From Egibacteraceae bacterium (GTDB taxonomy: Bacteria > Actinomycetota > Nitriliruptoria > Euzebyales > Egibacteraceae): DNA of 64,000 bases. Each line of letters starts with the position of its first letter. Within the stretch, counting starts at the first letter, position 1. Location: contig JBOGED010000195.1 of assembly GCA_050743625.1 (NCBI GenBank), positions 1,643 through 65,642 of the forward strand. Direction: 5' to 3'. Below are positions 34,986 to 51,325 of this stretch, piece after piece. Position numbers and translations under genes: made by a program. The notes below the pieces were generated by a model. It made no database searches. It was not told where the DNA came from and saw only the letters and a list, made by a program, of their open reading frames with translations.

Positions 34986-36164
34986 ATGGGCGAGAACGAT
35001 GCGGAAACAGCGGGTGTGGGCGGGCGCGCCCGGATGGAAGGCGGTGAGATTCCCCGCGTGAGCTACACCGATCTCTTGGCGGCGATCGCGGCGTTCGGTC
35101 TTCCCAACGCGTCGACCGCGCTACCGGGCGTCCCGCTTGCTCCCGCGCAATGGCGGCGGCTTATGGAGGGCACCGCGGCGGCGCGCCTGAGTGGTCATCT
35201 CGTCGAGGCCATTGACTCCAAAGCATTCGCCGTGACCGCTGAGCAGGCCCGGCAGGCGGCAGAGCTTCATCGCAAGCTGACGTGGCGGGTACTGGGGCTC
35301 GAGCGGCGGTTGCTGGAGGTGGCCGGGCTGCTCAGTGCGCTCGGTATCGAGATGCGCGTGTTGAAAGGGCCGGCGCTCGCCCGCACGTGCTACCCAAAGG
35401 TGTCCGCGCGCACCTTCGCCGACGTCGACGTGCTCGTGCCGGCGGATCGGTTCGACGAGGCGGGGGCGGCGCTGGCGGATGCGGGCTGCGCACGCACCCT
35501 CCCGCAGCTTCGGGAAGGGTTTGACCGACGGTTCGGGAAGAACGCGACGTTCGTCGGTCTCGATGGCTTACAGGTCGACGTGCACCGCACGTTCGTCGTC
35601 GGTCCCTACGGGCTCCTGATCACCCTCGAGGACCTGTTCGCCACGCACGAGTCATTCGCCCTTGGCGGGCGCATGCTGAAGGCGTTGGGCACCGAGGAGC
35701 AGTTCCTCAACGCCTGTTACCACGCGGCGTTGGGTGACGTGCCTCCGCAGCTGAGTGCCCTCCGTGACGTCGCCCAGATGCTCCTCGGCGCCAAGCTCGA
35801 CGTCGACCGCGCCCGTCGGCTCGCCGAAGCATGGCGGGGAACGGCCGTCCTGGCTCGGGCGGTCGCGTTGACGTGGCGAACGCTTCGCCTGAGCGAGCAG
35901 CCCCCGCTTGCCGTATGGGCGCGAGGGTTCACCCCCACCAGGTGGGATCGGCGGCTGCTCACCTGCTATGTGTCCGCGAACCGGAGCAACAGCCTGAAGT
36001 ACCTCGCGTCCGCGCGTGTCATCCCCGGCACGGGTGCCAAGCTCGCGTACCTGCGAGGACTCCTGCTTCCCGACCGCGCGTTCCTCGCGCGGCGGAGAGT
36101 GGCGTACGGTGCCTGGTGGCACCACGGCGCGATGGGGCTTCTGGGGCGGGAGCCGAAGCGATGA
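34986..36164 (+). CDS. Nucleotidyltransferase-family protein of the type found in RiPP/lasso clusters (PF14907-like), copy 1
   Basis: FADVDVLVPADRFDEAGAALADAGC is an NTase-fold motif. It is a paralogue of 44353..45540 and similar in length once the implausible 150-aa N-terminal extension of the track ORF is removed. Its stop codon overlaps the next start (ATGA). Confidence 0.7.
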   Translation: MGENDAETAGVGGRARMEGGEIPRVSYTDLLAAIAAFGLPNASTALPGVPLAPAQWRRLMEGTAAARLSGHLVEAIDSKAFAVTAEQARQAAELHRKLTWRVLGLERRLLEVAGLLSALGIEMRVLKGPALARTCYPKVSARTFADVDVLVPADRFDEAGAALADAGCARTLPQLREGFDRRFGKNATFVGLDGLQVDVHRTFVVGPYGLLITLEDLFATHESFALGGRMLKALGTEEQFLNACYHAALGDVPPQLSALRDVAQMLLGAKLDVDRARRLAEAWRGTAVLARAVALTWRTLRLSEQPPLAVWARGFTPTRWDRRLLTCYVSANRSNSLKYLASARVIPGTGAKLAYLRGLLLPDRAFLARRRVAYGAWWHHGAMGLLGREPKR

Positions 36165-36955
36165 TCGTATCGCTGTACCTGTTCACGACAGCGTGGCTCG
36201 AGCGGTTCTTCCGCATCGTGAAGGCCTGCTTCGACGGGGTCTGGCTGGGAGTGCTGAGCAGGGAACGGCTGCACGCCATCGACGCCTTGTACTACCACCG
36301 GGAGAAGCGGTACGCCGACGAGGAGTACAACCGTGGCGGACTTTGGCCGTGGGAGCAGGCCGCGCTCGACCGGTTCTTCGTGGGCTGTACGCGTGTCGTG
36401 GTGACTGGCGCGGGGGGCGGCCGTGAGGTCCTCGCCCTGCGCAAGCTCGGCTACGACGCCATCGGGTTCGAATGCAACCCTCAGCTCGCCGCCATTGGCG
36501 ATCGGCTCCTGGCCTCCGAAGGCCAACCGGGGCGGCTCTCACCGGCGCCCCGGGACGCCTGGCCCGGCACGGCGGGTCCCTGCGACGGCGTCATCGTCGG
36601 CTGGGGGTCGTACATGCTCATCCAAGGGCGCGCGCACAGGGTGGAGTACCTGCAAGGGGCCCGAGCGTGCCTGCCCGAGGGTGCCCCGATCCTCGTCTCG
36701 TTCTTCGCGCGTGGTGGAACGCCGATCTCTCTGCGAATCGTGGCGGTGGTCGGGAGCGCCTTGCGAAAGGTTCGAGGTCAACCTCCCGTAGAGATGGGCG
36801 ACGCGCTCCAACGTAATTATGTGCATTACTTCACGAGAGCCGAGATCGTCGACGAGCTTGCCGAAGGTGGTTTTGCGCTCGAGTTTTACGACACGAAGGA
36901 CTACGGGGTTGCGATTGCTCGTGCGGTCAAGGGAGAGCGAGATGAGCATGATTAA
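36161..36955 (+). CDS. Class I SAM-dependent methyltransferase
   Basis: Motif I VVVTGAGGGREVLALRKLGYDAIGFECNP. Translationally coupled on both sides. Confidence 0.75.
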   Translation: MIVSLYLFTTAWLERFFRIVKACFDGVWLGVLSRERLHAIDALYYHREKRYADEEYNRGGLWPWEQAALDRFFVGCTRVVVTGAGGGREVLALRKLGYDAIGFECNPQLAAIGDRLLASEGQPGRLSPAPRDAWPGTAGPCDGVIVGWGSYMLIQGRAHRVEYLQGARACLPEGAPILVSFFARGGTPISLRIVAVVGSALRKVRGQPPVEMGDALQRNYVHYFTRAEIVDELAEGGFALEFYDTKDYGVAIARAVKGERDEHD

Positions 36956-37202
36956 GGTCCGTGACGGCGCCGCCGTGTGGCGCGAGATCGAGGGAGAAAC
37001 GATCCTGCTTGCGCTCAAGGCGTCTGTGTACCTAGGGCTTAACCACACAGGAACGATACTCTGGGAGACGATGGTCGGCGGGACGACCTCGGACAACCTC
37101 ACCGATCTCCTCGTAGCGCAATTCGCCATCGACCGCGAGGATGCGGCGTCGGACGTCGCCGCCTTTGTCGACGGATGCCGCGCACACGGATTGCTCGAGT
37201 AG
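36942..37202 (+). CDS. PqqD-family RiPP recognition protein (lasso B1-like)
   Basis: 86 aa: MSMIKVRDGAAVWREIEGETILLALKASVYLGLNHTGTILWETMVGG..DREDAASDVAAFVDGCRAHGLLE. This has the typical PqqD/RRE length and pattern. Confidence 0.8.
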   Translation: MSMIKVRDGAAVWREIEGETILLALKASVYLGLNHTGTILWETMVGGTTSDNLTDLLVAQFAIDREDAASDVAAFVDGCRAHGLLE

Positions 37203-37210
37203 CCGGCACC

Positions 37211-37651
37211 ATGGCGGCGCCCGCGGAGCGGTTGACAACGGTGAGGGTCCTGTTTACGGCATGCTCGGTAGAGATCGCGATCCGTGCGCTGCCGATTCCT
37301 CGCTTCGTTCGCCTACTCGGGGTCACGCTTGCCACTGACGAAGGCGGCATCCCCCCAGAGCCGGCGACCGCTCCCGCGCTGTCGACGTTCGACCCCATCG
37401 AGCGCCGCCGGATACGGGCAGTGCTACGGGTTATGCGGCGTTGGCCTTTCGGGCGAGGCTCTTGCCTGCGCCAAGCCCTGCTGCTCGGCCACTTCCTTCG
37501 CGCGCGCCACCCGGTATTGCATCTCGGGGTGGCGGGACGCGGTGAGGAGATGGCTGCCCACGCGTGGATCGCGGTGTCAGGCGTCACCATCGGCGGCCTG
37601 GAAGGGTTTCTCCCGCTGATCGGTCGAGCGGGCGGTGATGAGGCGGGATGA
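37211..37651 (+). CDS. Lasso peptide biosynthesis B2 protein (transglutaminase-like Cys protease)
   Basis: RRWPFGRGSCLRQALLLGHFLRARH..LHLGV....AAHAWIAVSG carries the catalytic Cys and His in the spacing typical of PF13471-type B2 proteins. Confidence 0.8.
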   Translation: MAAPAERLTTVRVLFTACSVEIAIRALPIPRFVRLLGVTLATDEGGIPPEPATAPALSTFDPIERRRIRAVLRVMRRWPFGRGSCLRQALLLGHFLRARHPVLHLGVAGRGEEMAAHAWIAVSGVTIGGLEGFLPLIGRAGGDEAG

Positions 37652-37658
37652 ACGCCGT

Positions 37659-37791
37659 ACTGTGCAGAGTTAGTCCGGTATACCGGACTAACTCTGCACA
37701 GTGCAGGATTAGGCCGGCTGGCGCCGTCACTGCTAAGGCGAAAGATCCGGCAAACCGGGCGACGTGTCGCCGATTCTCATCTCAGTGCAGG
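37659..37791. repeat. Composite family A hairpin plus family B unit inserted between the B2 and ABC genes
   Basis: CTGTGCAGAGTTAGTCCGGTATACCGGACTAACTCTGCACAGTGCAGG is followed by GATTAGGCCGGCTGGCGCCGTCACTGCTAAGGCGAAAGATCCGGCAAACCGGGCGACGTGTCGCCGATTCTCATCTCAGTGCAGGG. Confidence 0.8.
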
Positions 37792-37829
37792 GCTAGGGGT
37801 GGAACGCGATCCCATCCGGAGGGCTCCTT

Positions 37830-39653
37830 GTGAGCGCGCCCATCGACGAGCTTTTTGGGCCGGTGAGCCGTAAACCGATCAAGCGGCTGCCCAGGCTCGT
37901 CGGTCAGGCGGTGGTGCTGGTGTGGCGGGCCGCCCCACGCCAATTCGCGCTGTCCGTGGTCTCGCAGGTTGGCGCGGGCTTGGGGCTCGCCGGCCAGTTG
38001 CTCGCCGGGCGGCGGCTGCTGGCGAGCGTACTTGCTGGCCAAGGGCTCAACGCAGTGCTCGACGACCTGGTGTTGCTCACGATCTTCACCGCGCTCGTGT
38101 CCTTCGCGGGGATGGCCCGGACGGAGCAACAACGGATCTTGAGTGAACTCGTCGCGAAATACGCAACGAATAAGGTGATCGAGGTCGCTTCCGCTGTCGA
38201 CCTCATCGCCTATGACGATCCCCAGTTTCACGACCGCTTTCAACGCGCCCGCATGAATGCCGCCGTGCGCCCTCTCCAGATGGCGAGCGGTGTTCTCGGC
38301 GTGCTCAGCGCGACAGCTGCCATCGCGGGCATTAGCCTCGCCCTGTTCGCGCTTGAGCCGCTATTCCTTCTGCTCGTCCTGGTCGCCTACATCCCGGTGT
38401 GGCTCGCGACGGCGCGTGGAAGCAAGCTCATTCATGCCTTTTCAGTACAACAAACCGCGCGTGACCGTCGCCAGGCATACCTCTGTCACATCCTGACGGA
38501 GAAGGACGCCGCCAAGGAGATGCGGACGTTCGACCTCCATGTCCCTCTCCGGCGCCGGCACGATCAGCTCATCGACGAGAAGCTGACGTATCTGCGTTCG
38601 GTGACGCGGCGCCGACTCCTGCTCGGGCTGGTGGCGAACGTCGCGACCGCGGCACTGACCGCCGCGAGCCTCGCCGTGTTGGTGGGGTTCGTCACGACGG
38701 GGCGTCTTACGCTCGCCTCCGCGGGGGCCGCGGCCGGTGCCATCGTCTTGCTCGGCCAGCGGCTGCAGGCGTTGACCAGCGGCGCGGGAGCGATCTATGA
38801 GAGCGCGCTCTTCCTAGAGGACTTCACGGGTTTTGTCGACATAATGCCCGCATTGCGCGCCGCGCGGCCCACCGCCTTGCCCCCACGCTGGCGAGTCCTT
38901 CGCGCGGAGCACGTCAGCTTCCGCTATCCCGCGCGCCAAGAGCCGAGTCTCCGCGATGTCTCGATCGAGATCCGCGCAGGCCAGGTCGTCGCCCTCGTCG
39001 GCGAGAACGGTTCGGGAAAGACGACGCTTGCGAAGATCTTGGCAGGGCTCTATGCCCCCTCCTCGGGCAGCGTGACGCTCGACGGTGCCGACGCCCGCGC
39101 GGTGGACCCGGCGCGCTGGCGCGACAGCCTCGGCGTGCTGTTCCAAGACTTCATGCGCTACCACTTCTCCGCGGGAGAGAACATCGGCCTCGGCCGGCAC
39201 GAGCACAGCGATGATCAATCCAGGATCCACCGGGCCGGCCGCGAGGCCGGTGTGGACGAGATGGTCGCGCGGCTGGAGCACGGATACGACACGCTGCTTG
39301 GACCCGAGTTCTACGGGGGCAGCGACCTGTCCGGGGGCCAGTGGCAACGCCTTGCCCTCGCCCGCGTGTTCTTCAGGGACGCGCCATTCCTGATCCTCGA
39401 CGAGCCGACCGCCGCGCTCGACGCGCGCGCCGAGGCCGCGCTCTTCGAGCGCGTCCGCCTGCTGTCGCGCGGCCGTTCCGTGCTCCTCATCTCGCACCGA
39501 CTCGCGAGCGTCCGGTCCGCTGACCGCATCTATGTGCTCGCTCACGGGCGAGTCGTCGAACAGGGCACTCACGACGAGCTGATCGCGCAAGGAGGGCTGT
39601 ACGCCGAGCTATTCAAGCTTCAGGCGTCAGCCTATCTCGGCCAAAAAGCCTAA
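37830..39653 (+). CDS. ABC exporter, fused permease-ATPase (lasso D-type)
   Basis: TM domain followed by Walker A GENGSGKTT, signature LSGGQWQR and Walker B FLILDEPTAALD. Confidence 0.9.
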   Translation: MSAPIDELFGPVSRKPIKRLPRLVGQAVVLVWRAAPRQFALSVVSQVGAGLGLAGQLLAGRRLLASVLAGQGLNAVLDDLVLLTIFTALVSFAGMARTEQQRILSELVAKYATNKVIEVASAVDLIAYDDPQFHDRFQRARMNAAVRPLQMASGVLGVLSATAAIAGISLALFALEPLFLLLVLVAYIPVWLATARGSKLIHAFSVQQTARDRRQAYLCHILTEKDAAKEMRTFDLHVPLRRRHDQLIDEKLTYLRSVTRRRLLLGLVANVATAALTAASLAVLVGFVTTGRLTLASAGAAAGAIVLLGQRLQALTSGAGAIYESALFLEDFTGFVDIMPALRAARPTALPPRWRVLRAEHVSFRYPARQEPSLRDVSIEIRAGQVVALVGENGSGKTTLAKILAGLYAPSSGSVTLDGADARAVDPARWRDSLGVLFQDFMRYHFSAGENIGLGRHEHSDDQSRIHRAGREAGVDEMVARLEHGYDTLLGPEFYGGSDLSGGQWQRLALARVFFRDAPFLILDEPTAALDARAEAALFERVRLLSRGRSVLLISHRLASVRSADRIYVLAHGRVVEQGTHDELIAQGGLYAELFKLQASAYLGQKA

Positions 39654-39658
39654 AAGAA

Positions 39659-39692
39659 TGCAGCTTTCTTTCGTAGATGGAGGAAAGCTGCA
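39659..39692. terminator. Family C hairpin between the convergent ABC and precursor genes (likely bidirectional terminator)
   Basis: TGCAGCTTTCtttcgtagatgGAGGAAAGCTGCA, the same hairpin family as at 21689, 21751 and 60552. Confidence 0.5.
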
Positions 39693-39711
39693 TTTAGGTC
39701 TACGTGCGAAT

Positions 39712-39867
39712 TTATCCAGAAAGAAAGACTTGGGCCCCCACAAGCCCGTCGACCAGGCTGCTGAACTGGTCTTGGCCTCTCCCGATCTTGTTGAACGGCT
39801 GCTGGGCCGTCAGCTCATGCACTGACCCCAGCTCGACTATCCTTGGGGATTCGTACGAGATGGTCAT
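39712..39867 (-). CDS. Lasso-type RiPP precursor peptide (51 aa)
   Basis: MTISYESPRIVELGSVHELTAQQPFNKIGRGQDQFSSLVDGLVGAQVFLSG. The leader fits the Y-x-x-P-x-(L/I)-x-x-x-G-x5-T pattern of lasso leaders. It lies within a PqqD/B2/ABC/kinase neighbourhood. The longer track ORF (39903 start) adds 12 residues. Confidence 0.6.
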   Translation of the reverse strand: MTISYESPRIVELGSVHELTAQQPFNKIGRGQDQFSSLVDGLVGAQVFLSG

Positions 39868-39953
39868 AAGATCTTCTTTCTTCTCCGCTTGCTTCCCACC
39901 CAACGTTTACCCGCAATCGATAGACTATATCTCGCGAGCGAAGCGGGCAAGGC

Positions 39954-40847
39954 TTGTTGCGGGCGGGGACACCATTGCGAACAAGAGAACCGGTCGGGGC
40001 ATATGGGTTATCTCTCACGGGCCTCGACCATGCCGGTAGAGTTCTGCAACCGGCGCCGGCCGACTGGGAACCCATGCGAGTCATTCATAAAATCGGCGCG
40101 CCGGGCCGTGAAGGCGCTCGTTGCATGGTCGGGCGAGACCGGGCTGAGTGGCTCATACAAGATGGTCCGTCCATCGTCGTCGATCGGGCCACGGCATCAG
40201 TCGTGATCACCGCTTCCTCGCCGTTGCGTGTCGATGCGCTGGTGCATCCCTACCTCGCCTTTCCCGCGGCGGTGTCCAGCTACTGGGCTGGCCGCTGTTC
40301 GCTGCACGCCGGTGCGCTCGCCGTCGACGGGAAGGTATGGGCACTGGTAGGCCAGAAAGGAGGCGGGAAGAGCTCGACGCTTGGGTGGTTCGCGCAGCGG
40401 GGCCACAGCGTCGTCACCGACGATCTGCTCATCATCGACCACGGGCGTGCCCTCGCCGGTCCGCGATGTATCGACCTTCGTGAGGAGGCCTCCCGCGATC
40501 TGGGAGCAGGCGAGGATCTGGGTGTTATCGGCATGCGGACGCGGTTTCGCGTCCGGCTCGGTCCGGTCCCTCCATGTCTACCCCTTGCGGGCTGGATCTT
40601 TCTCTCATGGGCGGACAAGCTGCATGTGGAGGCCATCCCCCCTGGCGAGCTGCTCAGGAGGATCTTCGCCAATCAGGCGTTGAGCCTCATCCCTCCCGAT
40701 CCGCACGTGTACCTCGATCTCGCCTCGCTTCCCGCTTGGGCGGTAGGGCGGCCTCGACGGCTGGACGCGCTTCCCGCGGTTTCCCGGCGCATCCTTGACC
40801 TCATCCAAGAGTGTGCTGAGACAACCACGCAGACTGCAACAGGCTGA
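39954..40847 (+). CDS. HPr-kinase-related (HprK-like) P-loop kinase
   Basis: P-loop ALVGQKGGGKSSTLGWFAQRGHSVVTDDLLII resembles the HprK C-terminal domain. The start is uncertain. The 3' end overlaps the convergent AsnB-like gene. Confidence 0.65.
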   Translation: MLRAGTPLRTREPVGAYGLSLTGLDHAGRVLQPAPADWEPMRVIHKIGAPGREGARCMVGRDRAEWLIQDGPSIVVDRATASVVITASSPLRVDALVHPYLAFPAAVSSYWAGRCSLHAGALAVDGKVWALVGQKGGGKSSTLGWFAQRGHSVVTDDLLIIDHGRALAGPRCIDLREEASRDLGAGEDLGVIGMRTRFRVRLGPVPPCLPLAGWIFLSWADKLHVEAIPPGELLRRIFANQALSLIPPDPHVYLDLASLPAWAVGRPRRLDALPAVSRRILDLIQECAETTTQTATG

Positions 40848-41907
40848 GGGTGCGACCGTCTGGTGGGTTCGACGCCCAGGTCCGCCGGAGGGCGGCAACA
40901 TCGACCAGGGACGAGTCGATCCCCATGCCATCCCACGCGCGGATAAACTCCCGCGTCCGGGGACCCCATATGGCCTCGTCGAACGCTGCCTTCGAGCCGC
41001 GCGCCAGGACAGAGGAGGGCAGGAGGTCGGCGAAGAATCGCGTCATGACCGTCGTTCGGTCCTCGAAGCCGGCCGCCCCACCAGCTTTCGCGAACGCGGC
41101 GATGACGCTCGGTGCCATGAACGGGTTCCGGACGCGTACGTCGACGGGGGCGGCGAGCGTTTCGAGCGCGCGGACGCCCGCTTGGAAGTCGCGGCTGCGC
41201 CACCACGCGTCGAGGCCGCGATCCCAGCGCTGCGGCCAGCTCGCCTCCCAGGCGGCGAGCTCCCAGGAGGCCTCAGCGGCTGCCTTGGGCAAAAGCCAAG
41301 GCAGCGCATCCGCCTGCCTTCGGTAGGCCACCCGAGCGCGGATCCCGCGCGGTGACGCGGCGAGGATCAGGCGCGGGAGGTCGCGGGGGACCGGCCGGAC
41401 CCGCCCAGCCAGGAGCCTCGCGACCCGCGAGCCGCTCGACCCGAACATCTGGTCGCCACCGATCCCGGTGAGCAACGAGCCGCCGCGAGCACTCTCGAGG
41501 AGCGGGAGGTGCGCGTAGGCGTTGGGAGGAAACAGGAGCCCGTGGCGATCGAGCACACGCGTCGCGACGGGGCCGAGCGCCTCCAGCTCGCCACGGACCT
41601 CGATGCGGAGCCAGTCGACCAGGCCGAGATGCGCGACCACCAGCTCCTGCCACTCGGTCTCGTCCGTACCCGCGGCGTCGGGATACCGGAAGGTCGCGGG
41701 GACAGGGAGCGGCAGGCCCTCTCGCCGCGCCACGTCAACCGCGACCGCGAGGACCGTAGACGAGTCCCGGCCTCCAGAGAAGCTCACCAGGCAAGGCGGC
41801 CTGACCAGCGCCGATCGGACCACTTTCTGGACCGCGGTGATCGGGCTCTCCTCGACGGCGGCATGCCCGCGCAGCCTCGGCACGGTCGGATCGGTGCCGA
41901 TGAGCAT
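40801..41907 (-). CDS. Asparagine-synthetase-related PP-loop ATPase lacking the N-terminal glutaminase-like domain (short lasso-cyclase-like), copy 1
   Basis: The PP-loop motif VSFSGGRDSS lies only about 45 residues from the proposed start (ATG 41907). The track ORF start at 42024 lies inside a family A repeat and is rejected. It is a paralogue of 62857..64000. Confidence 0.7.
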   Translation of the reverse strand: MLIGTDPTVPRLRGHAAVEESPITAVQKVVRSALVRPPCLVSFSGGRDSSTVLAVAVDVARREGLPLPVPATFRYPDAAGTDETEWQELVVAHLGLVDWLRIEVRGELEALGPVATRVLDRHGLLFPPNAYAHLPLLESARGGSLLTGIGGDQMFGSSGSRVARLLAGRVRPVPRDLPRLILAASPRGIRARVAYRRQADALPWLLPKAAAEASWELAAWEASWPQRWDRGLDAWWRSRDFQAGVRALETLAAPVDVRVRNPFMAPSVIAAFAKAGGAAGFEDRTTVMTRFFADLLPSSVLARGSKAAFDEAIWGPRTREFIRAWDGMGIDSSLVDVAALRRTWASNPPDGRTLSLLQSAWLSQHTLG

Positions 41908-41956
41908 GCCGACGGCGATGTCGAGGGGACGCGGCTCGGGTCTCGCGACCCCGCAT

Positions 41957-42003
41957 CGTGCAGAGTTATGCCGGTGTACCGGCATAACTCTGCACAGTGC
42001 AGG
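41957..42003. repeat. Family A palindromic hairpin between the GT4 and AsnB-like genes
   Basis: CGTGCAGAGTTATGCCGGTGTACCGGCATAACTCTGCACAGTGCAGG. Confidence 0.8.
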
Positions 42004-42020
42004 AAAAAGCGGGGCGGGGC

Positions 42021-43160
42021 TCACCGACCATTGAGCACCTCGTCGTAGAGGTCCTCCAAGCGCCGGACGGCGTGGGCAATCCGGAAGCGCTTGGCGCTTT
42101 GCCGGGCCTGCGCCGCCATCTCGGCGCGCTGCCCGGGATCCCTCAACAGGCTGTCGATGGCGTTCGCCATGAGTGCTGGCTGGGCGGGTGGGACGAGGAG
42201 GCCTTCACGCCCGTCCGTGACGACCTCAGGGACGCCGCCCGTGGTGGTGGCGACGGCGGGTACGCCGGCCGCCAAGGCCTCTATGAGCGCCAGCGACAGG
42301 CCCTCGTAACGGGAGCTGATCACGAAGGCGTCGAACGCCGGCAGGATCTCCTGGACATCGTCGCGACAACCGGTGAACATCACGCGCTCGCCGATGCCGG
42401 CCGTGACGGCGTGAGCCCGCAGGCGTGCCTCAAGCGGCCCACTGCCGACCAGGACGAGACGCAGCCGTGGGTGATGGCCCGCCACCTGGCGCACGGCCTC
42501 GAGCATCGTGCGGTGGTCCTTGGCCGGGGTAAAGCTGCCGACCGCGCCGAGCACCACGTCGCCGTCGGCGAGCCCTAGCGTGCGGCGGGCGAGGGCGCGT
42601 GCCTCGGGTCCGCTCCGGACGAGCGCCTCGTCGATACCGTGATGCAGGACCTCGACGCTCGGCATCGAGACCCAGAACATCCACCGGGGCGGTCGGATCG
42701 AGTCCGCCACCCCCTGTGAGATGGCCACAACCGCGGCGTTCCGCCCGTACGTCGCCGCGTTGACCAGGTAGGTCGGCAACCGGTAGCGCGGCCACACGCT
42801 GTGCTCGGTATGCATGAGGATCGGGCCTGCCCGAGCGAGTGCGATCCGGGCAACGCTGGCGGGCAGCGGGCTATGGGTATGGACGACGCCGAAATCCCCT
42901 GTGCGCACGAGCCGGCGAAGGCGCCATACCCAGGAAAGGTCTGGCAGAACCCCACCCTCGAGGCAGTGGACGGCAAGGCCGCGACCGCGGATCTCCTCGA
43001 CGAACGCGCCCTGGTGGGGCAATAGGTAGGCGACCTCGACGTGGACGCGCTCGCGATCGAAATACGGGGCGGACGCGCTGATCAACCGCTCCATTCCTCC
43101 CCGTCCCAGGCCCTTGGTGAGCAGGAGCACACGTACCGGGCGGGCCCTCGTCATGGACAA
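42021..43160 (-). CDS. Glycosyltransferase family 4 (GT-B, RfaG-like)
   Basis: N-terminal VLLLTKGLGRGGMERL. The C-terminal motif EGLSLALIEALAAGVPAVATTTGGVPEVV is the typical E-x7-E region. Confidence 0.85.
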   Translation of the reverse strand: MSMTRARPVRVLLLTKGLGRGGMERLISASAPYFDRERVHVEVAYLLPHQGAFVEEIRGRGLAVHCLEGGVLPDLSWVWRLRRLVRTGDFGVVHTHSPLPASVARIALARAGPILMHTEHSVWPRYRLPTYLVNAATYGRNAAVVAISQGVADSIRPPRWMFWVSMPSVEVLHHGIDEALVRSGPEARALARRTLGLADGDVVLGAVGSFTPAKDHRTMLEAVRQVAGHHPRLRLVLVGSGPLEARLRAHAVTAGIGERVMFTGCRDDVQEILPAFDAFVISSRYEGLSLALIEALAAGVPAVATTTGGVPEVVTDGREGLLVPPAQPALMANAIDSLLRDPGQRAEMAAQARQSAKRFRIAHAVRRLEDLYDEVLNGR

Positions 43161-44356
43161 GGTGGAGCACCTTCACCCGAGGCATCACGGAGCGCCCGTG
43201 CGACCGGCTCCGCGTGAGCGTGGAGGCTCATGACGGCCTTGGCCAATCGGTCGATCTGCTCGTCCCTCATGTGTGACCAGAGAGGCAAGGAAAGTACGCG
43301 TGCGGCCGCATCCTCGGTGACCGGAAGCGGGCGGCGAGGTGGCTCGCCGGCATAGCACCGCTGCCGGTGGACGGGGGGATGGTAATAGCGTCGCGAGTCA
43401 ATCCCCTCGCGGCGCAACGCCACGCCGAGGGCTTCGGCGCCGAGCCCGAACCCGCCAGCTGAGATGAGCATGGTCATGTCCTTGAAGGTCGACACGTCGC
43501 CGGGATCGACTGCGGGGAAGGTGCATCCCGGCAGTCCGTGAACCGCGCTCCGGAAGCGCTCGACGAGCTCAGTGCGGCGAGACACCCGCGCATCCAGACC
43601 CCGCAAGGAGGCCAGCCCGATCGTCGCGTGCAGCTCTGACATCCGGGCGTTGAGCCCGGGGAACAGGCAGTCATAGTCGCCGGGATTCCCGTAGTCCCGT
43701 CCAAGACGCACCGTCTCCGCGAGCCCGCCGTCGTTCGTGGCGACCAACCCACCCTCACCGGCGACGACGACCTTCGTCGGGCTCAGGCTGAAGACCTCCG
43801 CTGTCCCGAACCCGCCGATCGCTCGCTGGCGACGCCGGCTGCCGAGGGCGTGCGCCGCGTCGTAGACCAGCGGGAGCCGGGCCGCGTCAGCCTGCCTCTG
43901 CAAGCCCTCGACGTCGCAGGGGGTCCCGTAGAGATGCACCGCCATGATCGCGCTCGCTCCACCGGCGCCGAGCGCCGCCGATGCGGGATCCAGCGTGAGC
44001 GTCTCCGGGTCGATATCCGCCCAGTCCGGGCTGCCGCCCGCCCAGCGGATCGCATGTGCGGTCGCCGAGAACGTGAAGCTGGGTACCACCACACGGCCCC
44101 AGGCGTTCACGGCTTGCAGGACGAGCATAAGCCCTGCGGTGCAGCTCGAGGTGGCCACCACATGGCGGACGCTGAGATAGGCGGCGGCCGTCTCCTCAAG
44201 CCGGCGGACGACCGGGCCGTTGGTGAGCATGCCGCTGGCGAGAACCGATTCGAGCGCTCGGGCAATGCTCGGCACGTCCTGGATCGCCGGGCGAACGAGG
44301 GGGAGGCCCTCTGGGAAGGCAGGATCACCGCCGAGGATCACTGGGCGGCGCGTCAT
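43151..44356 (-). CDS. DegT/DnrJ/EryC1/StrS-family PLP-dependent sugar aminotransferase (PglE-like)
   Basis: The proposed start MTRRPVILGGDPAFPEG (ATG 44356) overlaps the upstream stop codon (ATGA). The PLP-lysine region reads FSLSPTKVVVAGEGG. The 108 upstream residues of the track ORF are rejected. Confidence 0.85.
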   Translation of the reverse strand: MTRRPVILGGDPAFPEGLPLVRPAIQDVPSIARALESVLASGMLTNGPVVRRLEETAAAYLSVRHVVATSSCTAGLMLVLQAVNAWGRVVVPSFTFSATAHAIRWAGGSPDWADIDPETLTLDPASAALGAGGASAIMAVHLYGTPCDVEGLQRQADAARLPLVYDAAHALGSRRRQRAIGGFGTAEVFSLSPTKVVVAGEGGLVATNDGGLAETVRLGRDYGNPGDYDCLFPGLNARMSELHATIGLASLRGLDARVSRRTELVERFRSAVHGLPGCTFPAVDPGDVSTFKDMTMLISAGGFGLGAEALGVALRREGIDSRRYYHPPVHRQRCYAGEPPRRPLPVTEDAAARVLSLPLWSHMRDEQIDRLAKAVMSLHAHAEPVARALRDASGEGAPPCP

Positions 44357-45540
44357 GGCCGCCTCCGCGAGCACACGACGGACGAGAGGCCGCGTCCTAA
44401 CCAGCGGAGCCGGTGCTGCCCGTGGTGAGCGAGCCACGCGGGATCGGGCAGGACAAGGGCTCGCATGAACGCCGCCTTGGAGCCAACGCCCTCTATCGCC
44501 TGCAGGGTGTCGAGGGCCCGATGGGCGTATCGCCGGCTTCGGTAGCCCGCGAGAAACCGTTGTTCCCTCCTGCTCGGCGTATACCGGTGAGCCCAGACAG
44601 ACAGGGGCACCGCGTCGGACAGCGCGAGCCGCTCCCACGACAGCCGTACCGCGAAGGCAAGCGCCCCTTCGGCGGCCCACGCCCTCGCCATCTCGAGCAC
44701 GCGGTCGGTGTTCAGCATGTCGGCCAGCACGTGCTGAGCGACATCCCGGAGCCGTACCAGGCGCGGGGGGACGCCAAGCGCCGCCTGATAGCAGGAGTGG
44801 AGAAAGTGCGCCTCAGGCGGCAGCGCCATGATCGGCCTGCTCCCGACCGAGAACACCGTCGCATCGTGGAACAGGGAGTCGAGCGGGATGGTCAGGCCGA
44901 ACGGACCGGAAATCAGGTTGCGGTGCAGGTTGATGGACATCCCGTCAGCCCGCGAGAGTGTGACGGCCATACCGAACGTCTCGTCGAAGCCTGGCCGTAA
45001 TGTCGGTGACCCGCGTTGGTACCCGAGCGCCATCAGCACATGCAGCGCCGTATGGAGCTGCGCTTGCGGTACGAGCACGCCAACGTCCCGGTAGGGACGT
45101 GCCGCAGGATCTGGGTAGGCGAAACGGGCCGTCGCCGCGCCGTTGAGGGCCCGCGATGCGATGCCGGCCCGGTTGAGCGCCTCCACGGCCTCCAAGAGCC
45201 CGGCCTCGCGCAACAGCACCCCACCCGTCGCCCGCGCATGCAGCTGGCGCGCCCCCCGGGCCTGCTCACGGGTCGCGGGCAACGCCTGCGACGCGATCGC
45301 GTGGAGCAGCAGCCCGCTGAGCCGATGCTGGTCGACCTGTGACAGGAAGTACCGCCAGCGCGCATCCTCCAAGAGCTCTGCCGGCCAAGCTAGCCGGGAG
45401 CCCGGTAAACCCGCGGCCGCCGTGGCATGCAAGAGACGCCCGATCGCGCTGGCGTGGGCGGGAGAGGCGGACCCGGCGGGATTGTGTGAGGGATAGGCGA
45501 CATATAGGTCGCGTATCCCGCACACAGGGAATCCGGCCAT
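44353..45540 (-). CDS. Nucleotidyltransferase-family protein (PF14907-like), copy 2, embedded in the polysaccharide operon
   Basis: YRDVGVLVPQAQLHTALHVLMALGYQR is an NTase motif. It is collinear with 34986..36164 (for example DVAQHVLADML versus DVAQMLLGAKL). It is translationally coupled at both ends. Confidence 0.7.
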   Translation of the reverse strand: MAGFPVCGIRDLYVAYPSHNPAGSASPAHASAIGRLLHATAAAGLPGSRLAWPAELLEDARWRYFLSQVDQHRLSGLLLHAIASQALPATREQARGARQLHARATGGVLLREAGLLEAVEALNRAGIASRALNGAATARFAYPDPAARPYRDVGVLVPQAQLHTALHVLMALGYQRGSPTLRPGFDETFGMAVTLSRADGMSINLHRNLISGPFGLTIPLDSLFHDATVFSVGSRPIMALPPEAHFLHSCYQAALGVPPRLVRLRDVAQHVLADMLNTDRVLEMARAWAAEGALAFAVRLSWERLALSDAVPLSVWAHRYTPSRREQRFLAGYRSRRYAHRALDTLQAIEGVGSKAAFMRALVLPDPAWLAHHGQHRLRWLGRGLSSVVCSRRRP

Positions 45541-47288
45541 CAGGCGTCGTGGCCGTTGAGCGGCGTGGACGCGGGTGCCGCCATGCGGGCGTGGTTATCC
45601 GGTTGCGTCCCATGGCCAGGGTTGCCGTACTGACGGCCTGGCGCCGCGCCGTGCCCTGCGGCCACCCCGACGAGCACCACACCCAGGACCGGGGCCTCCA
45701 GCCGGCCGAGGAGCTCTCTGGTGAGCGCGGCGGACTCGGCGGTCGTATACCCACTCCGGGCGACGACCACCACCGCGTCAGCATGGGGGATGAGCGCCGC
45801 GGGGTCGTTGACGCCCAGCATCGAGCCCGCGTCGATGATGACGATGTCGGCGATCTCGCTCGCCTCCCTGATCAGGGTCTGGTCCGAGCGCAAGATCTGA
45901 CCGAGCCTCGCGAGCTGTCGCCCGCTTGGCACGATCCACACGCCGCTGATGTCGGTCTGCTGGGCCAGCGTCGACAACGAGGTCTTCTCCGAGTCCCGCA
46001 GCAGGAAATCCGCCACACCCGGATGGGGCAGGGCGCCGAGGTACCGATGCGCTCCCGGATTGCGAAAGTCGCAATCCAACACAAGCACCCGCGTACCGAT
46101 CTCTGCGAAGCTGGCGGCAAGGTTCGCGACGGTGCTGGTCTTGCCCTCGCCCGTGCTGGCAGAGGTGACAAGCACGACGCTGGGGGGCGTCCCTTTAGTC
46201 TCACGAGACGCGGTGGCCAGCTCCGACGGGCCTGGCGGATGCCCGCTGCCGGGCGGTTGTGGGGCCAGCACCCAGCGTGGCATGAGCTGCAGTGACAGGC
46301 GCAAGGCCGTGTACGCCTCCGCCGTTTGCGACCGAGGATCGGAGCGGACGATGACTGCGTGGTCGGATAGCGCACGGGATGGGAGGCGAGGGACCTCCGC
46401 GACGACCGGGAGGCCAAATGCGTGCTCGACACTGCCGCGTGTCCGCAGCCGGCTGTCGACCCGATCGAGCCGGTAGGCCAGCGCAAGCCCCAGCGCGAGC
46501 CCCATGACCGCCCCGATGGCGATGCGGGCGGCCAAGCTGGCCGGGGGTCGGATACCCTGCTGGGTCGGGATGGGGATCGCCTCTTGCAAGGTGTAGAGCC
46601 CTCCCATCGCCGCCTCCGCCCCGGAGAGCTGCTCGATCCGCCGCAAGGTGGCGCTGTACTCACCTTGGAGCGCGTCCCGCTCGGTCAGCGTGACCTGGTA
46701 CTGGGCGTCCGCCCCCAGCGCGACTGTCAGGTTCGCGGGGGACGCCACCGCCGCGATCTCTTGCAGCCTTCTCGCGACGTCAAGGCTGAGGTCGCGGATT
46801 CGCTCCTCCTGAGAGCGCCGCAGCCTTTCGGCGCTCTCGAGCGCGGCTTGCCGCGCCTCCTCGGCCTCGGCCCGCACGTAGCGCACCGCCTCCTCCGCGA
46901 GCGTGTTCGCGAGCAGAGCGGCGAGCGTGGGGTCCTCATCTTCGGCGGTCAACGACAGGATGCCGGTCTCTGGATCGCCGGTGGCGATGACCTTGCTGGC
47001 GAGCTCCGCCGGCTCGAGGCCCACGCCGAGCCGCTCGGCGGCGGCGGTCGGGATCGGCCCTGTGGCGATCAGCAGAGCGAGCACGTCCAGCCCGATCGCA
47101 TTGCCCTCGCGCTCCGGCAGGGCGTCCTGGACCAACAGGTGGGTCGCCGAGTAGATGACGGGCTCGGGCTCCCGGGGCGTGGTCAGCCAGGCGACGACCG
47201 TAGCCAGCTGGAGCGAGAGGAGCACCACTGGCCACCTACGGCGCAGGATCCTCAGATAGTGAACGGGTCCCATTACCGCACCTGTCAA
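45540..47288 (-). CDS. Polysaccharide co-polymerase / BY-kinase-like protein (Wzc-like: Wzz domain plus P-loop ATPase)
   Basis: N-terminal TM helix, coiled-coil and second TM helix, then Walker A SASTGEGKTSTVANLA and VLVLDCDFRNP. No obvious C-terminal Tyr cluster; there is only one Tyr in the tail. Confidence 0.8.
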   Translation of the reverse strand: MTGAVMGPVHYLRILRRRWPVVLLSLQLATVVAWLTTPREPEPVIYSATHLLVQDALPEREGNAIGLDVLALLIATGPIPTAAAERLGVGLEPAELASKVIATGDPETGILSLTAEDEDPTLAALLANTLAEEAVRYVRAEAEEARQAALESAERLRRSQEERIRDLSLDVARRLQEIAAVASPANLTVALGADAQYQVTLTERDALQGEYSATLRRIEQLSGAEAAMGGLYTLQEAIPIPTQQGIRPPASLAARIAIGAVMGLALGLALAYRLDRVDSRLRTRGSVEHAFGLPVVAEVPRLPSRALSDHAVIVRSDPRSQTAEAYTALRLSLQLMPRWVLAPQPPGSGHPPGPSELATASRETKGTPPSVVLVTSASTGEGKTSTVANLAASFAEIGTRVLVLDCDFRNPGAHRYLGALPHPGVADFLLRDSEKTSLSTLAQQTDISGVWIVPSGRQLARLGQILRSDQTLIREASEIADIVIIDAGSMLGVNDPAALIPHADAVVVVARSGYTTAESAALTRELLGRLEAPVLGVVLVGVAAGHGAAPGRQYGNPGHGTQPDNHARMAAPASTPLNGHDA

Positions 47289-49207: not shown

Positions 49208-49519
49208 TTGAGTATTCCGCCTCACGACCAGGCCACACGTGTTGCCGCCACCCGCCCCATAGCCGACATGTCTCGCCCGCTTTCCGCCCCGCTTGGTACT
49301 GGTGGTCCACAGTACCTCCCGCATCGCCCTCGCCAGCTTAAGCCGCAAATCCGTTCCGTCAATAGCCATCGAGTAGTAACCCGTGTGGGCCAATGGCGAC
49401 ACATGCGTCGCCAATGCTCCTCAAAGACACATCGGAGTTTTTATATATGTTCACGTCTTGCCGTGGACGCAGTGAGCTGATGCGGTACCATCCAGCGGGC
49501 GGGATTGGGCGTATGAATA

Positions 49520-51322: not shown

Positions 51323-51325
51323 GCC

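What the first reader, a model, noticed from the sequence alone, without database searches (positions are those of the whole stretch)
34986..42024. Lasso-type RiPP gene set with non-canonical parts, spliced into a polysaccharide operon
Within 7 kb the window encodes:
- a PF14907-like nucleotidyltransferase;
- a SAM methyltransferase;
- PqqD (B1);
- the B2 Cys protease;
- an ABC exporter;
- a 51-aa lasso-leader-like precursor;
- an HprK-like kinase;
- an AsnB-related PP-loop enzyme.

The first four genes are chained by ATGA or short overlaps.

Kinase and nucleotidyltransferase tailoring is known from paeninodin- and pseudomycoidin-type lasso clusters. Three things differ here:
- The only cyclase candidate lacks the whole N-terminal domain.
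- The precursor has no Asp/Glu at core positions 7-9.
- The cyclase-like gene is the terminal gene of a long minus-strand polysaccharide operon (CapD-like, Wzc-like, NTase, aminotransferase, GT4, AsnB-like), most members of which overlap by 4-10 nt.

The peptide-maturation genes and the glycan-assembly genes therefore appear to be one functional unit. A peptide-primed, peptide-capped or peptide-regulated sulfated glycan is possible. I do not know of a characterised example.
Basis: partly seen in the sequence, partly recalled or inferred. Interest (0 to 1): 0.85.

Follow-up and report, generated by a model that had tools for sequence, protein, structure and literature searches.

The report
Lasso-like peptide cluster with short cyclase
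This is a real gene cluster for a lasso-type modified peptide from a large, unstudied actinobacterial family whose ring-closing enzyme lacks its usual front half, whose peptides carry a conserved Lys-x5-Asp motif that suggests a new way of closing the ring, and which often sits beside sugar-polymer genes.

Summary

The short synthetase is not a degenerate gene and not a glycan enzyme. It defines a family of about 1,000 clusters at 50% identity, found in at least 286 species. In about 75 of 82 loci it sits in a fixed triple: cyclase, convergent kinase, precursor. Its tree follows the precursor type.

All 94 unique precursors keep the canonical lasso leader register, so B2 cleavage should leave a core that starts QQPFNK. 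Of these, 78 carry K-x5-D at a variable distance from the cleavage site. A cysteine before the Lys co-occurs with a cysteine in the tail. I infer a Lys(Nε)–Asp ring of 26 atoms; this is not demonstrated.

A truncated lasso cyclase has one precedent, triculamin TriC, but that system has no B1/B2 and no leader.

Glycan genes recur next to the cassette (42 of 80 loci; the priming sugar transferase is translationally coupled in some). Cyclase–sulfotransferase and cyclase–nucleotidyltransferase fusions exist.

The parts
34986..36164 (+). NTase1: PF14907 (NTP_transf_5) nucleotidyltransferase
   Evidence: Pfam E 2.1e-29. It is 43% identical to NTase2 at 44353-45540. A homologous N gene is found in about 60 of 80 related cassettes. 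A cyclase-NTase fusion exists (P0219).
36161..36955 (+). Class I SAM-dependent methyltransferase (M)
   Evidence: ATGA overlap with NTase1. No Pfam hit, but a 7-sequence profile hits PDB class I methyltransferases at E 4.7e-7. Present only in the 'FNK' precursor clade.
36942..37202 (+). B1: PqqD-type RiPP recognition element
   Evidence: PF05402 E 8e-16. NF033530 and NF033536 lasso PqqD models hit below their cutoffs. ATG at 36942 or 36948, overlapping the MT stop.
37175..37651 (+). B2: transglutaminase-like Cys protease (leader peptidase); alternative start at 37211
   Evidence: NF033537 scores 59.1 bits against a cutoff of 33; PF13471 hits. Cys97 and His129 are invariant in 64 of 64 homologues. 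The gene is deleted in the 91.5%-identical relative L086.
37659..37702 (.). Perfect 44-nt palindrome (22-nt arms) between B2 and the ABC gene; one copy of a repeat family
37830..39653 (+). D: fused ABC exporter (permease + ATPase)
   Evidence: PF00005 E 1.5e-32; MsbA-like and bacteriocin-exporter NCBIfam hits, all below cutoff.
39657..39694 (.). 12-bp hairpin between the convergent ABC and precursor genes (terminator-like)
39712..39867 (-). A: 51-aa precursor MTISYESPRIVELGSVHELTA|QQPFNKIGRGQDQFSSLVDGLVGAQVFLSG (leader | core; K6, D12, S29)
   Evidence: NF033521 scores above its cutoff. Register Y(-17) P(-14) I(-12) G(-8) T(-2). Against the relative L086, 9 of 10 codon changes are synonymous. 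94 unique homologues sit at the conserved position.
39954..40847 (+). K: HprK/PEPCK-fold P-loop kinase
   Evidence: Pfam PF07475 E 0.009 and TIGR04352 E 0.0027. Profile against PDB Hpr(Ser) kinase E 0.034. AF2 pLDDT 91.2, and Foldseek matches PEPCK and HprK/P at probability 1.00. It converges on the cyclase with a 47-nt 3' overlap, as in most relatives.
40801..42024 (-). C: short AsnB-type PP-loop synthetase (macrolactam synthetase candidate); likely start is the ATG at 41985
   Evidence: PF00733 only. Family of about 390-aa proteins. AF2 pLDDT 86.6, with Foldseek top hits TsnB9, ASNS, beta-lactam and carbapenam synthetases. Weak NF033561 and NF033535 lasso-cyclase hits.
41958..41995 (.). Palindromic repeat copy at the GT4/cyclase junction, overlapping the cyclase start
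42021..49414 (-). Glycan genes upstream of C on the same strand: GT4 (42021-43160), DegT aminotransferase (43151-44356), NTase2 PF14907 (44353-45540), Wzc-like P-loop protein (45540-47288), CapD/PglF-like dehydratase (47285-49414)
   Evidence: Pfam and NCBIfam. Overlaps of 1-10 nt. The same order is kept in L086-88.
49520..58179 (.). Further glycan or tailoring genes: ABC exporter 49520-51322 (+), sulfotransferases 51326-52240 (+) and 52093-53094 (+), PMT_2-like membrane protein 52989-54473 (+), Bac_transf 54400-55230 (-), GT4 54990-56156 (-), deacetylase 56153-57001 (-), Wzy_C 57118-58179 (-)
   Evidence: The sulfotransferases are 30-37% identical to sulfotransferases embedded in K1-type cassettes. 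Cyclase-sulfotransferase fusions exist.
62815..64000 (+). Second short AsnB paralogue (C2), cut by the end of the window
   Evidence: tblastn 46.6% identity over 378 aa; translation. It clusters with cyclases from glycan-rich loci L079, L032 and L033.

Best explanation
The region encodes one member of a large, uncharacterised family of lasso-type RiPP clusters. The family is typical of deep-branching Actinomycetota (Thermoleophilia, Acidimicrobiia; this MAG is Egibacteraceae).

**Proposed pathway.**
1. The 51-aa precursor has a canonical lasso leader. *Shown.*
2. The leader is bound by the PqqD/B1 protein and cut by the B2 Cys protease after Thr(-2)-Ala(-1). This releases the core QQPFNKIGRGQDQFSSLVDGLVGAQVFLSG. 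*Inferred from the invariant register.*
3. The roughly 390-aa AsnB-type enzyme has only the ATP-dependent synthetase half. It adenylates the side chain of the conserved Asp (D12). *Inferred from the chemistry of the family.*
4. The activated Asp is joined, most likely, to the epsilon-amine of the conserved Lys six residues upstream (K6). That gives a 26-atom isopeptide ring and leaves a short N-terminal overhang. *Inferred.*
5. The HprK/PEPCK-fold kinase, the PF14907 nucleotidyltransferase(s), the methyltransferase and probably the nearby sulfotransferases decorate the peptide. A Ser near the C-terminus is the likeliest target. *By analogy with paeninodin and pseudomycoidin.*
6. The ABC transporter exports the product.

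The cyclase gene belongs to the peptide pathway. In this genome it has come to lie at the 3' end of a glycan operon.
For: **Family size.**
- 1604 hits at E<=1e-5.
- 1047 clusters at 50% identity with E<=1e-30, almost all 380-420 aa long.
- 286 species-representative genomes.

**Fixed architecture.**
- The common order is (D Dm) N B1 B2 C> K< A>. The C/K/A triple is present in about 75 of 82 loci.
- C and K converge and overlap at their 3' ends in most loci, as they do in the window.

**The cyclase tracks its substrate.** The cyclase tree follows the precursor type.

**Domain fusions.** B2+C, C+NTase and C+sulfotransferase fusions exist.

**Leader.** Y(-17), P(-14), G(-8) and T(-2) are invariant in 94 of 94 precursors. 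This matches the published lasso leader motif (PMC12070363). B2 Cys and His are invariant.

**The small ORF is translated.** 9 of 10 codon changes against the relative are synonymous.

**Lys-Asp ring.**
- K-x5-D occurs in 78 of 94 precursors, against 6.2 in shuffles. Another 4 have K-x6-D.
- The Lys sits anywhere from core position 1 to 14, and at 21 in one case, while the K-to-D spacing stays fixed.
- A Cys upstream of the Lys co-occurs with a Cys in the tail: 31 have both, 50 have neither, 2 are exceptions (one of them is cut by a contig end). Fisher p = 1.7e-20. This implies the segment before the Lys is kept in the product, so the Lys alpha-amine is not free.
- K-x5-D via N-epsilon gives 26 ring atoms and K-x6-D gives 29. 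Both fall inside the range of known lasso rings. This is my own atom count, made in the same way as the '8 aa/25 atom' and '9 aa, 29 atom' figures in PMC13352647.

**A truncated cyclase can be functional.** A clade of short cyclases pairs with classical G1...D8/D9 cores. Triculamin TriC is an experimentally validated truncated lasso cyclase (PMC12070363).
Against: - No product has been observed for any member of the family.
- The Lys nucleophile is inferred only from sequence patterns. The counts are not corrected for phylogeny.
- The G1-D8/9 clade shows that the short cyclase can presumably use an alpha-amine. A switch of nucleophile within one enzyme family therefore has to be assumed.
- The conserved Lys could serve another role, such as recognition or a modification site.
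- B2 is conserved, yet it would not be chemically required for a Lys-Asp ring.
- The cyclase scores far below the curated cutoffs of every lasso-cyclase model (37 bits against 300).
- In the sister lineage L086, B2 is deleted and the methyltransferase is frameshifted. Part of this locus may therefore be dispensable or decaying.
Confidence: 0.55

Rival explanations
1. Peptide and glycan genes form one functional unit. [quoted passage not shown] It is then linked, through the PF14907 enzymes and/or a Wzy_C-type transferase, to a sugar or oligosaccharide built by the neighbouring pgl-like genes (PglF/E/D/C-like enzymes, GT4s, ABC flippase). This does not exclude the best explanation; it adds to it.
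For: - Glycan-type genes lie within 10 kb in 42 of 80 loci, and in 30 of the 51 loci with full flanks.
- The priming phosphoglycosyl transferase is present in 18 of 80 loci, at a median of 1.1 kb from the cassette and within 2.5 kb in 15 of those 18. It occurs in at least 7 different arrangements.
- In L001, PGT-oxidoreductase-ABC-N-B1-B2-C is one chain of overlapping genes.
- L083 has C-A-B1-B2-PGT.
- L085 has WecG, Epimerase_2 and GT4 around the cassette.
- L081, from an independent family, has N-Wzc...Wzy_C plus a PGT.
- A second PF14907 gene sits inside the window's glycan operon.
- The order is conserved in the 91.5%-identical relative.
- Precedents: pseudomycoidin is phosphoglycosylated by a kinase plus a PF14907 enzyme (PMC8498205), and davasins are glycosylated lasso peptides (PMC11912497).
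Against: - About half of the loci, including the whole G1-D9 Acidimicrobiales clade, show no glycan gene within 10 kb using my seed HMMs.
- No control set of random loci from the same genomes was available, so the enrichment rests on general expectation.
- Many PGT-positive loci are related Gaiellaceae.
- Wzc and Wzy point to an ordinary exopolysaccharide.
- Wzy_C homologues could not be traced across loci.
Confidence: 0.3
2. An ordinary lasso or branched-cyclic peptide made through the N-terminal alpha-amine. Either Gln1 joins D12 in a 12-residue ring, or a second cleavage just before Lys exposes K1 for a 7-residue K1-D7 ring. In either case the conserved Lys has a different role.
For: - The G1...D8/D9 clade uses the same short cyclase family.
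- Three K1-type cores already start with Lys right after the leader, with K at +1 and D at +7.
- B2 is conserved with an intact Cys/His pair.
- Every characterised lasso cyclase, including truncated TriC, uses the alpha-amine (PMC12070363, PMC13352647).
Against: - With a fixed T(-2) register, the distance from residue +1 to the Asp ranges from 7 to 27 residues while the K-D spacing is constant.
- There is no conserved Thr or other cleavage motif at K-2 or K-1.
- The covariation between the upstream Cys and the tail Cys argues that the pre-Lys segment stays in the product.
- B2 is missing from about half of the loci in the window's own clade.
Confidence: 0.2
3. The AsnB-like protein is a glycan-pathway amidotransferase or ligase, terminal gene of the polysaccharide operon. 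Its position next to an incomplete lasso set is coincidental, and a full-length cyclase lies elsewhere in the genome.
For: - It shows a 4-nt overlap or 36-nt gap with GT4 on the same strand.
- 14 of 18 family members hit asn_synth_AEB weakly.
Against: - The C/K/A triple is conserved in about 75 of 82 loci, regardless of whether glycan genes are present.
- The tree tracks the precursor type.
- B2-C, C-N and C-ST fusions exist.
- There is no glutaminase domain to supply ammonia.
- No full-length cyclase is found in the window. The only other PF00733 gene is another short copy.
- A palindromic element separates GT4 from the cyclase start.
Confidence: 0.05

Closest known systems
Paeninodin- and pseudomycoidin-type lasso peptide clusters (Firmicutes; A-K-C-B1-B2-(N)-D)
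   Same: - Lasso leader, split B1/B2 and an ABC exporter.
- An HprK-type kinase that phosphorylates a C-terminal Ser.
- A PF14907 nucleotidyltransferase that adds hexose to the phosphate.
- Sulfotransferases have been noted in some of these clusters (PMC8498205).
   Different: - Those clusters have full-length cyclases and cores with Asp/Glu at positions 7-9.
- Here the cyclase is about 390 aa and the core has K-x5-D at a variable offset.
- The Ser is usually penultimate (…SP, …SG) rather than last.
- The kinase is too diverged for Pfam.
- The host phylum is Actinomycetota, and glycan genes are frequent neighbours.
Triculamin non-canonical lasso BGC (triA/triC/triD/triT, Streptomyces; PMC12070363)
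   Same: The macrocyclase lacks the N-terminal domain of about 150-250 aa, and it has been shown experimentally to make a lasso peptide. The ring-forming Asp lies in a small-residue context (PGDG there, often [ST]-D-G here).
   Different: - Triculamin has no B1/B2, no leader (it has a follower peptide), no kinase and no NTase.
- Its ring uses the N-terminal alpha-amine.
- Its authors found no truncated-cyclase BGC with any other core.
- Sequence relatedness of TriC to this family was not tested, because no TriC sequence was available.
Canonical actinobacterial lasso clusters (A-C-B1-B2-D, e.g. lariatin, fusilassin)
   Same: The same leader motif Y(-17)xxP(-14)xL(-12)...T(-2), PqqD RRE, transglutaminase-fold protease, AsnB-superfamily ATP-dependent cyclase and ABC export.
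   Different: The canonical cyclase is about 550-650 aa with an N-terminal glutaminase-like domain. Core residue 1 is small (G/A/S/C) and the acceptor sits at positions 7-9.
Graspetides (microviridin-type side-chain macrolactams)
   Same: If the Lys-Asp model is right, the cross-link chemistry is the same: Lys N-epsilon to an Asp/Glu side-chain amide.
   Different: Graspetide rings are made by ATP-grasp ligases through acyl-phosphates. Here the enzyme is a PP-loop AsnB-type adenylating enzyme, and no ATP-grasp gene was seen among the annotated genes of the locus.

Membership tests
Lasso peptide BGC (canonical) | Precursor leader with Y(-17)xxP(-14)xL(-12)...T(-2) | tested here: met
   The window has Y-17, P-14, I-12, G-8 and T-2. 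The register is invariant in 94 of 94 homologues. NF033521 scores above its cutoff.
Lasso peptide BGC (canonical) | PqqD-type RRE (B1) and transglutaminase-fold Cys protease (B2) | tested here: met
   PF05402 E 8e-16. NF033537 scores 59 bits against a cutoff of 33. Cys and His are invariant.
Lasso peptide BGC (canonical) | Full-length lasso cyclase (about 550-650 aa, N-terminal glutaminase-like domain plus synthetase domain; NF033535/NF033561) | tested here: not met
   The protein is 407 aa (394 by the NCBI start) with PF00733 only. NF033561 scores 37 bits against a cutoff of 300. The profile aligns to AsnB residues from about 206 onward.
Lasso peptide BGC (canonical) | Core with a small residue at position 1 and Asp/Glu at position 7, 8 or 9 | tested here: not met
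   The core starts with Gln and its first acidic residue is D12. Only about 10 of 94 family precursors are canonical G1-D8/9.
Lasso peptide BGC (canonical) | Threaded lariat topology of the product | not testable with these tools
   Needs NMR, ion mobility or carboxypeptidase assays on the isolated product.
Kinase/NTase-tailored lasso peptides (paeninodin, pseudomycoidin) | HprK-family kinase in the cluster | tested here: met
   Weak by sequence (Pfam E 0.009; PDB profile E 0.034) but clear by fold. AF2 pLDDT is 91, and Foldseek matches PEPCK and HprK/P at probability 1.00. The P-loop GxxGxGKS and the DD motif are invariant.
Kinase/NTase-tailored lasso peptides (paeninodin, pseudomycoidin) | PF14907 nucleotidyltransferase | tested here: met
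   E 2e-29 for NTase1 and 1e-27 for NTase2.
Kinase/NTase-tailored lasso peptides (paeninodin, pseudomycoidin) | C-terminal Ser as phosphorylation site | tested here: inconclusive
   The window peptide ends …FLSG, so the Ser is penultimate. 78 of 94 precursors have a Ser within the last three residues. No biochemical test was possible.
Triculamin-type non-canonical lasso BGC | N-terminally truncated macrocyclase | tested here: met
   definition taken from PMC12070363.
Triculamin-type non-canonical lasso BGC | Absence of B1/B2; leaderless precursor with a follower peptide; PGDG core | tested here: not met
   B1, B2 and a leader are present. The window core has GQDQ around the Asp.
AsnB-type glutamine amidotransferase of polysaccharide loci (e.g. 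TIGR03108 type) | N-terminal Ntn glutaminase domain with Cys1 | tested here: not met
   No GATase domain was found. Only 1 of 18 family members hits TIGR03108, weakly.

The most novel reading that the evidence does not exclude
The short AsnB enzymes define a new branch of lasso-like RiPPs. In this branch the macrolactam closes from a Lys side-chain amine to Asp (K-x5-D, 26 atoms), not from the N-terminal amine. The product is a ring with both an N-terminal and a C-terminal tail. In a third of members the two tails are stapled by a disulfide. The C-terminal Ser region is further phospho-, sulfo- or glyco-modified. In many lineages the modifying enzymes are co-inherited with undecaprenyl-phosphate glycan machinery, which would make the product a peptide-glycan conjugate of the cell envelope rather than a free antibiotic.
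Probability: 0.35. Interest if true: 0.88.

Novelty: new variant of a known kind. Interest (0 to 1): 0.72.

Why it matters
- Lasso peptides are defined by a ring closed from the N-terminal amine by a two-domain cyclase. The only published exception on the enzyme side is triculamin, whose authors asked whether truncated cyclases can make anything else.
- This locus belongs to a family of about 1,000 clusters at 50% identity, in at least 286 species, almost all uncultured soil Actinomycetota. The family answers that question in silico with several distinct core types.
- It also offers a specific, cheap test: K6A and D12A variants with LC-MS.
- If the Lys-Asp ring is real, it widens lasso topology and gives a compact cyclase for engineering internal rings.
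- The recurrent coupling to priming sugar transferases, ABC-2 transporters, sulfotransferases and PF14907 enzymes also gives a handle on what PF14907 proteins do.

Tried and rejected
**Searches that led nowhere.**
- The word-indexed search with the 51-aa precursor found only its own cluster. Relatives had to be found with my own HMM on fetched loci.
- Literature searches found no description of this family. The terms covered lasso plus Thermoleophilia genera, truncated cyclase, AsnB-like RiPP macrolactam, and PF14907/HprK-related kinase. Only the triculamin precedent turned up. The paeninodin JBC paper and the Barrett 2025 cyclase paper are not held.
- No TriC sequence could be obtained, because no supplements are held. 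Relatedness to TriC is therefore untested.
- I tried to reach the parent contig beyond 64 kb to see the partners of the second cyclase. Only a 1.7-kb Logan contig came back.

**Tests that gave no usable result.**
- HMMs seeded with the window's Wzy_C and PMT_2-like proteins found no homologues in the 80 loci. Even L081's Pfam-positive Wzy_C was missed. The O-oligosaccharyltransferase idea could not be tested.
- The sigma-70 promoter scan found nothing, and terminator-like sites were at chance level.
- The two 87-aa Gly/Asn-rich secreted proteins are not chaplins according to Pfam.

**Ideas rejected.**
- AsnB-like as a glycan amidotransferase (see the rival explanations).
- A class V lasso Lys-to-C-terminus ring. 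That ring is made by a clostripain-like GelP, and none is present here.
- The antisense 55-aa ORF at 39658-39825 as the precursor. It has no leader motif and is not conserved.

Full report
**1. What is in the window.**

The sequence is high-GC. The AsnB-like protein is 100% identical to an NCBI protein from an Egibacteraceae MAG.

- PF14907 nucleotidyltransferase, 34986-36164 (+).
- PqqD/B1, 36942-37202 (+).
- Lasso B2 protease, 37175-37651 (+), above the NCBIfam cutoff.
- ABC exporter, 37830-39653 (+).
- PF00733-only protein of 407 aa, 40801-42024 (-).

The 51-aa precursor lies on the minus strand (39712-39867). It scores above the cutoff of NF033521, 'lasso RiPP family leader peptide'.

Two parts needed more work.
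- The putative methyltransferase has no Pfam hit at all. A profile of seven orthologues matches class I SAM methyltransferases in the PDB (E 4.7e-7).
- The kinase is only marginal by sequence. Its AlphaFold2 model (pLDDT 91.2) matches PEP-carboxykinases and HprK/P with probability 1.00.

The overlaps NTase/MT (ATGA), MT/B1 and B1/B2 are visible in the sequence. The minus-strand chain CapD-like, Wzc-like, second PF14907, DegT aminotransferase, GT4, AsnB-like is as described.

**2. The short AsnB protein is a family, and it belongs to the peptide.**

Family size:
- The 5.8-billion-protein search gave 1604 hits at E<=1e-5. The best 120 are all about 375-450 aa and carry PF00733 alone.
- An exhaustive profile search of 1.84 billion representatives found 1047 clusters at E<=1e-30.
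- A scan of one genome per species found 286 genomes. Nearly all are MAGs of Gaiellaceae, Solirubrobacteraceae, Thermoleophilaceae and Acidimicrobiia.

Structure and similarity:
- The PP-loop SGGxDS and about 45 other positions are invariant.
- The profile aligns to E. coli AsnB and beta-lactam synthetase from about residue 206 onward, that is, to the synthetase half only.
- The AF2 model (pLDDT 86.6) finds TsnB9, human ASNS, beta-lactam synthetase and carbapenam synthetase.
- Family members weakly hit both asn_synth_AEB and two lasso-cyclase models, all far below cutoff.

Gene neighbourhoods:
- I called ORFs in 82 fetched loci and built iterative HMMs from the window's proteins.
- The dominant architecture is (ABC-2 ATPase, permease) - PF14907 - PqqD - B2 - short cyclase, then a convergent kinase, then one to three precursors.
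- The cyclase/kinase/precursor triple occurs in about 75 of 82 loci.
- The two convergent genes overlap at their 3' ends in most loci. In the window they overlap by 47 nt.
- So the window's cyclase, kinase and precursor are in the ancestral arrangement. It is the upstream partner genes that have been replaced by glycan genes.

Further links between cyclase and peptide:
- A neighbour-joining tree of cyclases sorts by precursor type.
- Natural fusions exist: B2+cyclase, cyclase+PF14907 and cyclase+sulfotransferase.
- No full-length cyclase is present in the window. The only other PF00733 gene is a second short copy at 62815 to beyond 64000.

**3. The precursor.**

All 94 unique precursors have Y(-17), P(-14), an aliphatic residue at -12, G(-8) and T(-2) at a fixed spacing. 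This is the published lasso leader motif (PMC12070363). B2 keeps its Cys and His in 64 of 64 sequences.

Cleavage should therefore give the core QQPFNKIGRGQDQFSSLVDGLVGAQVFLSG.

Against a relative at about 91.5% nucleotide identity (L086-88), the small ORF shows ten changed codons. Nine are synonymous, and the one replacement is in the leader. The ORF is therefore translated and under purifying selection.

**4. A conserved Lys-x5-Asp.**

The pattern in the family is this:
- 78 of 94 precursors carry K-x5-D, against 6.2 expected from shuffled cores.
- Four more carry K-x6-D.
- About ten, mostly from one Acidimicrobiales clade, are classical G1...D8/D9 cores without Lys.
- The Lys lies anywhere from core position 1 to 14 (21 in one case), while its distance to the Asp does not change.

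A Cys before the Lys and a Cys in the C-terminal tail occur together (31 precursors) or not at all (50). There are two exceptions, one of which is a contig-end truncation (Fisher p = 1.7e-20, not corrected for phylogeny). The simplest reading is a disulfide. That means the pre-Lys segment stays in the product and the Lys alpha-amine is locked in a peptide bond.

An AsnB-type enzyme adenylates a carboxylate and hands it to an amine. The Lys epsilon-amine is then the obvious partner. By my atom count, K-x5-D closed this way gives 26 atoms, the same as the Gly1-Glu8 ring of microcin J25. K-x6-D gives 29. Both are within the known lasso range. The counting scheme follows PMC13352647.

This is an inference, not a demonstration.

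In the window's own clade, B2 is absent within 10 kb in L008, L014, L017 and L052, and it is deleted in L086. That fits a ring that does not need a new N-terminus. B2 could, however, be encoded elsewhere in those genomes.

**5. Relation to what is known.**

- Kinase, PF14907 and sulfotransferase genes in lasso clusters are known from Firmicutes. Paeninodin is phosphorylated on the C-terminal Ser. Pseudomycoidin is phosphoglycosylated (PMC8498205).
- Glycosylated lasso peptides made by a dedicated glycosyltransferase are also known (PMC11912497).
- An N-terminally truncated lasso cyclase has been validated once, for triculamin. That system lacks B1/B2 and the leader. Its authors state they found no truncated-cyclase cluster encoding any other core (PMC12070363).
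- A 2026 review still describes only N-terminal-amine rings and notes that no cyclase crystal structure exists (PMC13352647).
- Class V lasso Lys cross-links are made by a clostripain-like transpeptidase. They are unrelated to this case.
- I found no paper describing this family. The library does not hold most subscription journals.

**6. The glycan link.**

Pfam shows that the window's 42-62 kb stretch holds:
- a PglF/CapD-like dehydratase;
- a DegT aminotransferase;
- a PglD-like acetyltransferase;
- a small Bac_transf;
- two GT4s;
- a deacetylase;
- a Wzy_C protein;
- a Wzc-like P-loop protein;
- a second fused ABC exporter;
- two sulfotransferases.

Among 80 related loci:
- 42 have at least one glycan-type gene within 10 kb (30 of the 51 with full flanks).
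- 18 have a priming phosphoglycosyl transferase, at a median of 1.1 kb from the cassette.

Individual cases:
- In L001 the transferase, an oxidoreductase, the ABC-2 pair, N, B1, B2 and C form one chain of overlapping genes.
- L083 has C-A-B1-B2-PGT.
- L085 has WecG, Epimerase_2 and GT4 around the cassette.
- L081, a Solirubrobacteraceae member of the window's own clade, has N next to a Wzz/Wzc gene, a Wzy_C gene and a PGT.

The association is therefore recurrent and survives rearrangement, which argues for function. It is not universal, and I had no random-locus control.

The sulfotransferases are 30-37% identical to sulfotransferases that sit directly upstream of the cyclase in six loci. With the cyclase-sulfotransferase fusions, they may well act on the peptide.

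**7. Operon structure.**

A perfect 44-nt palindrome lies between B2 and the ABC gene. A related 38-nt palindrome lies between the GT4 stop and the conserved part of the cyclase, overlapping the ATG at 41985 that NCBI uses as the start. A third copy is at 10.5 kb.

These look like a dispersed palindromic repeat. Whether they terminate, stabilise or regulate transcripts is unknown. Co-transcription of GT4 and the cyclase should therefore not be assumed.

**8. Verdict.**

This is a real, non-canonical lasso-type cluster, and its contact with glycan genes is probably meaningful. The cyclase-like gene, however, is a peptide enzyme from a large unrecognised family.

Noticed in passing
window 62815-64000 (+): A second short AsnB paralogue, 46.6% identical to the first, runs off the end of the window. 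Its kinase and precursor partners, if any, lie beyond 64 kb. The glycan region is therefore bracketed by two short cyclases.
   Followed up: partly
window 10502-10539, 37659-37702, 41958-41995: A dispersed palindromic repeat, GTGCAGAGTTA(G/T)(T/G)CCGG...CCGG..TAACTCTGCAC. I found 7 half-site matches against 0.15 expected. Two copies sit at junctions inside the cluster (B2/ABC and GT4/cyclase). It could be REP-like or an operator; its function is unknown.
   Followed up: partly
window 11073-33000: Two RamC-type (class III/IV) lanthipeptide synthetase genes (18155-20860 on the minus strand, 23483-26098 on the plus strand), each with a pair of ABC transporters. There is also an S9 prolyl oligopeptidase (16209-18197) and an M16 peptidase pair (30039-32848). 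A 42-aa ORF at 26138-26266 (MALLDLQGMEL...SSRSKHSCGPSVLSITIICL) looks like a SapB/RamS-type precursor. The window is a RiPP-rich island.
   Followed up: partly
window 8830-9093 (-) and 9442-9705 (-): Two paralogous 87-aa proteins, each with a signal-peptide-like N-terminus, a Gly/Asn-rich body and two Cys (…GGNGGNGG.AVGVGVCAVNIAV.G.AGC.NNGVA…). They have no Pfam hit, so they are not chaplins by Pfam.
   Followed up: partly
L086-L088 (three metagenome assemblies, about 91.5% nt identity to window 34505-49898): The gene order is the same as in the window, glycan genes included. However, the B2 gene is cleanly deleted between PqqD and the palindrome, and the methyltransferase is split over two frames. 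The precursor, kinase, cyclase and ABC gene remain conserved.
   Followed up: yes
P0161, P0206, P0219, P0156 (representative library): Natural fusions of the short cyclase with a sulfotransferase (two cases), with PF14907, and with B2.
   Followed up: yes
window 42021-61367: The glycan locus resembles a bacillosamine-type protein-glycosylation (pgl) set: PglF-like dehydratase, PglE-like aminotransferase, PglD-like acetyltransferase (PglD_N hit), small PglC-like Bac_transf, GT4s, an ABC exporter and a Wzy_C-family protein. Wzy_C is the family that includes O-oligosaccharyltransferases.
   Followed up: no
L062 (one locus): Two cyclase genes and three precursor-like ORFs lie within 21 kb. One of the precursors has a His-rich core (MHHVSWHHDHPHGHGHGGFHHHGSM) unlike all the others.
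   Followed up: no
window 61391-62241 (-): A flavin reductase and a stand-alone acyl/peptidyl carrier protein (PP-binding) lie just upstream of the second short cyclase. Their role is unknown.
   Followed up: no
window 39954-40125: NCBI calls the kinase as 240 aa (P0267). Residues G15, Y17 and G18 of the longer 297-aa reading are conserved across homologues, so the upstream TTG (or a nearby) start is more likely.
   Followed up: partly
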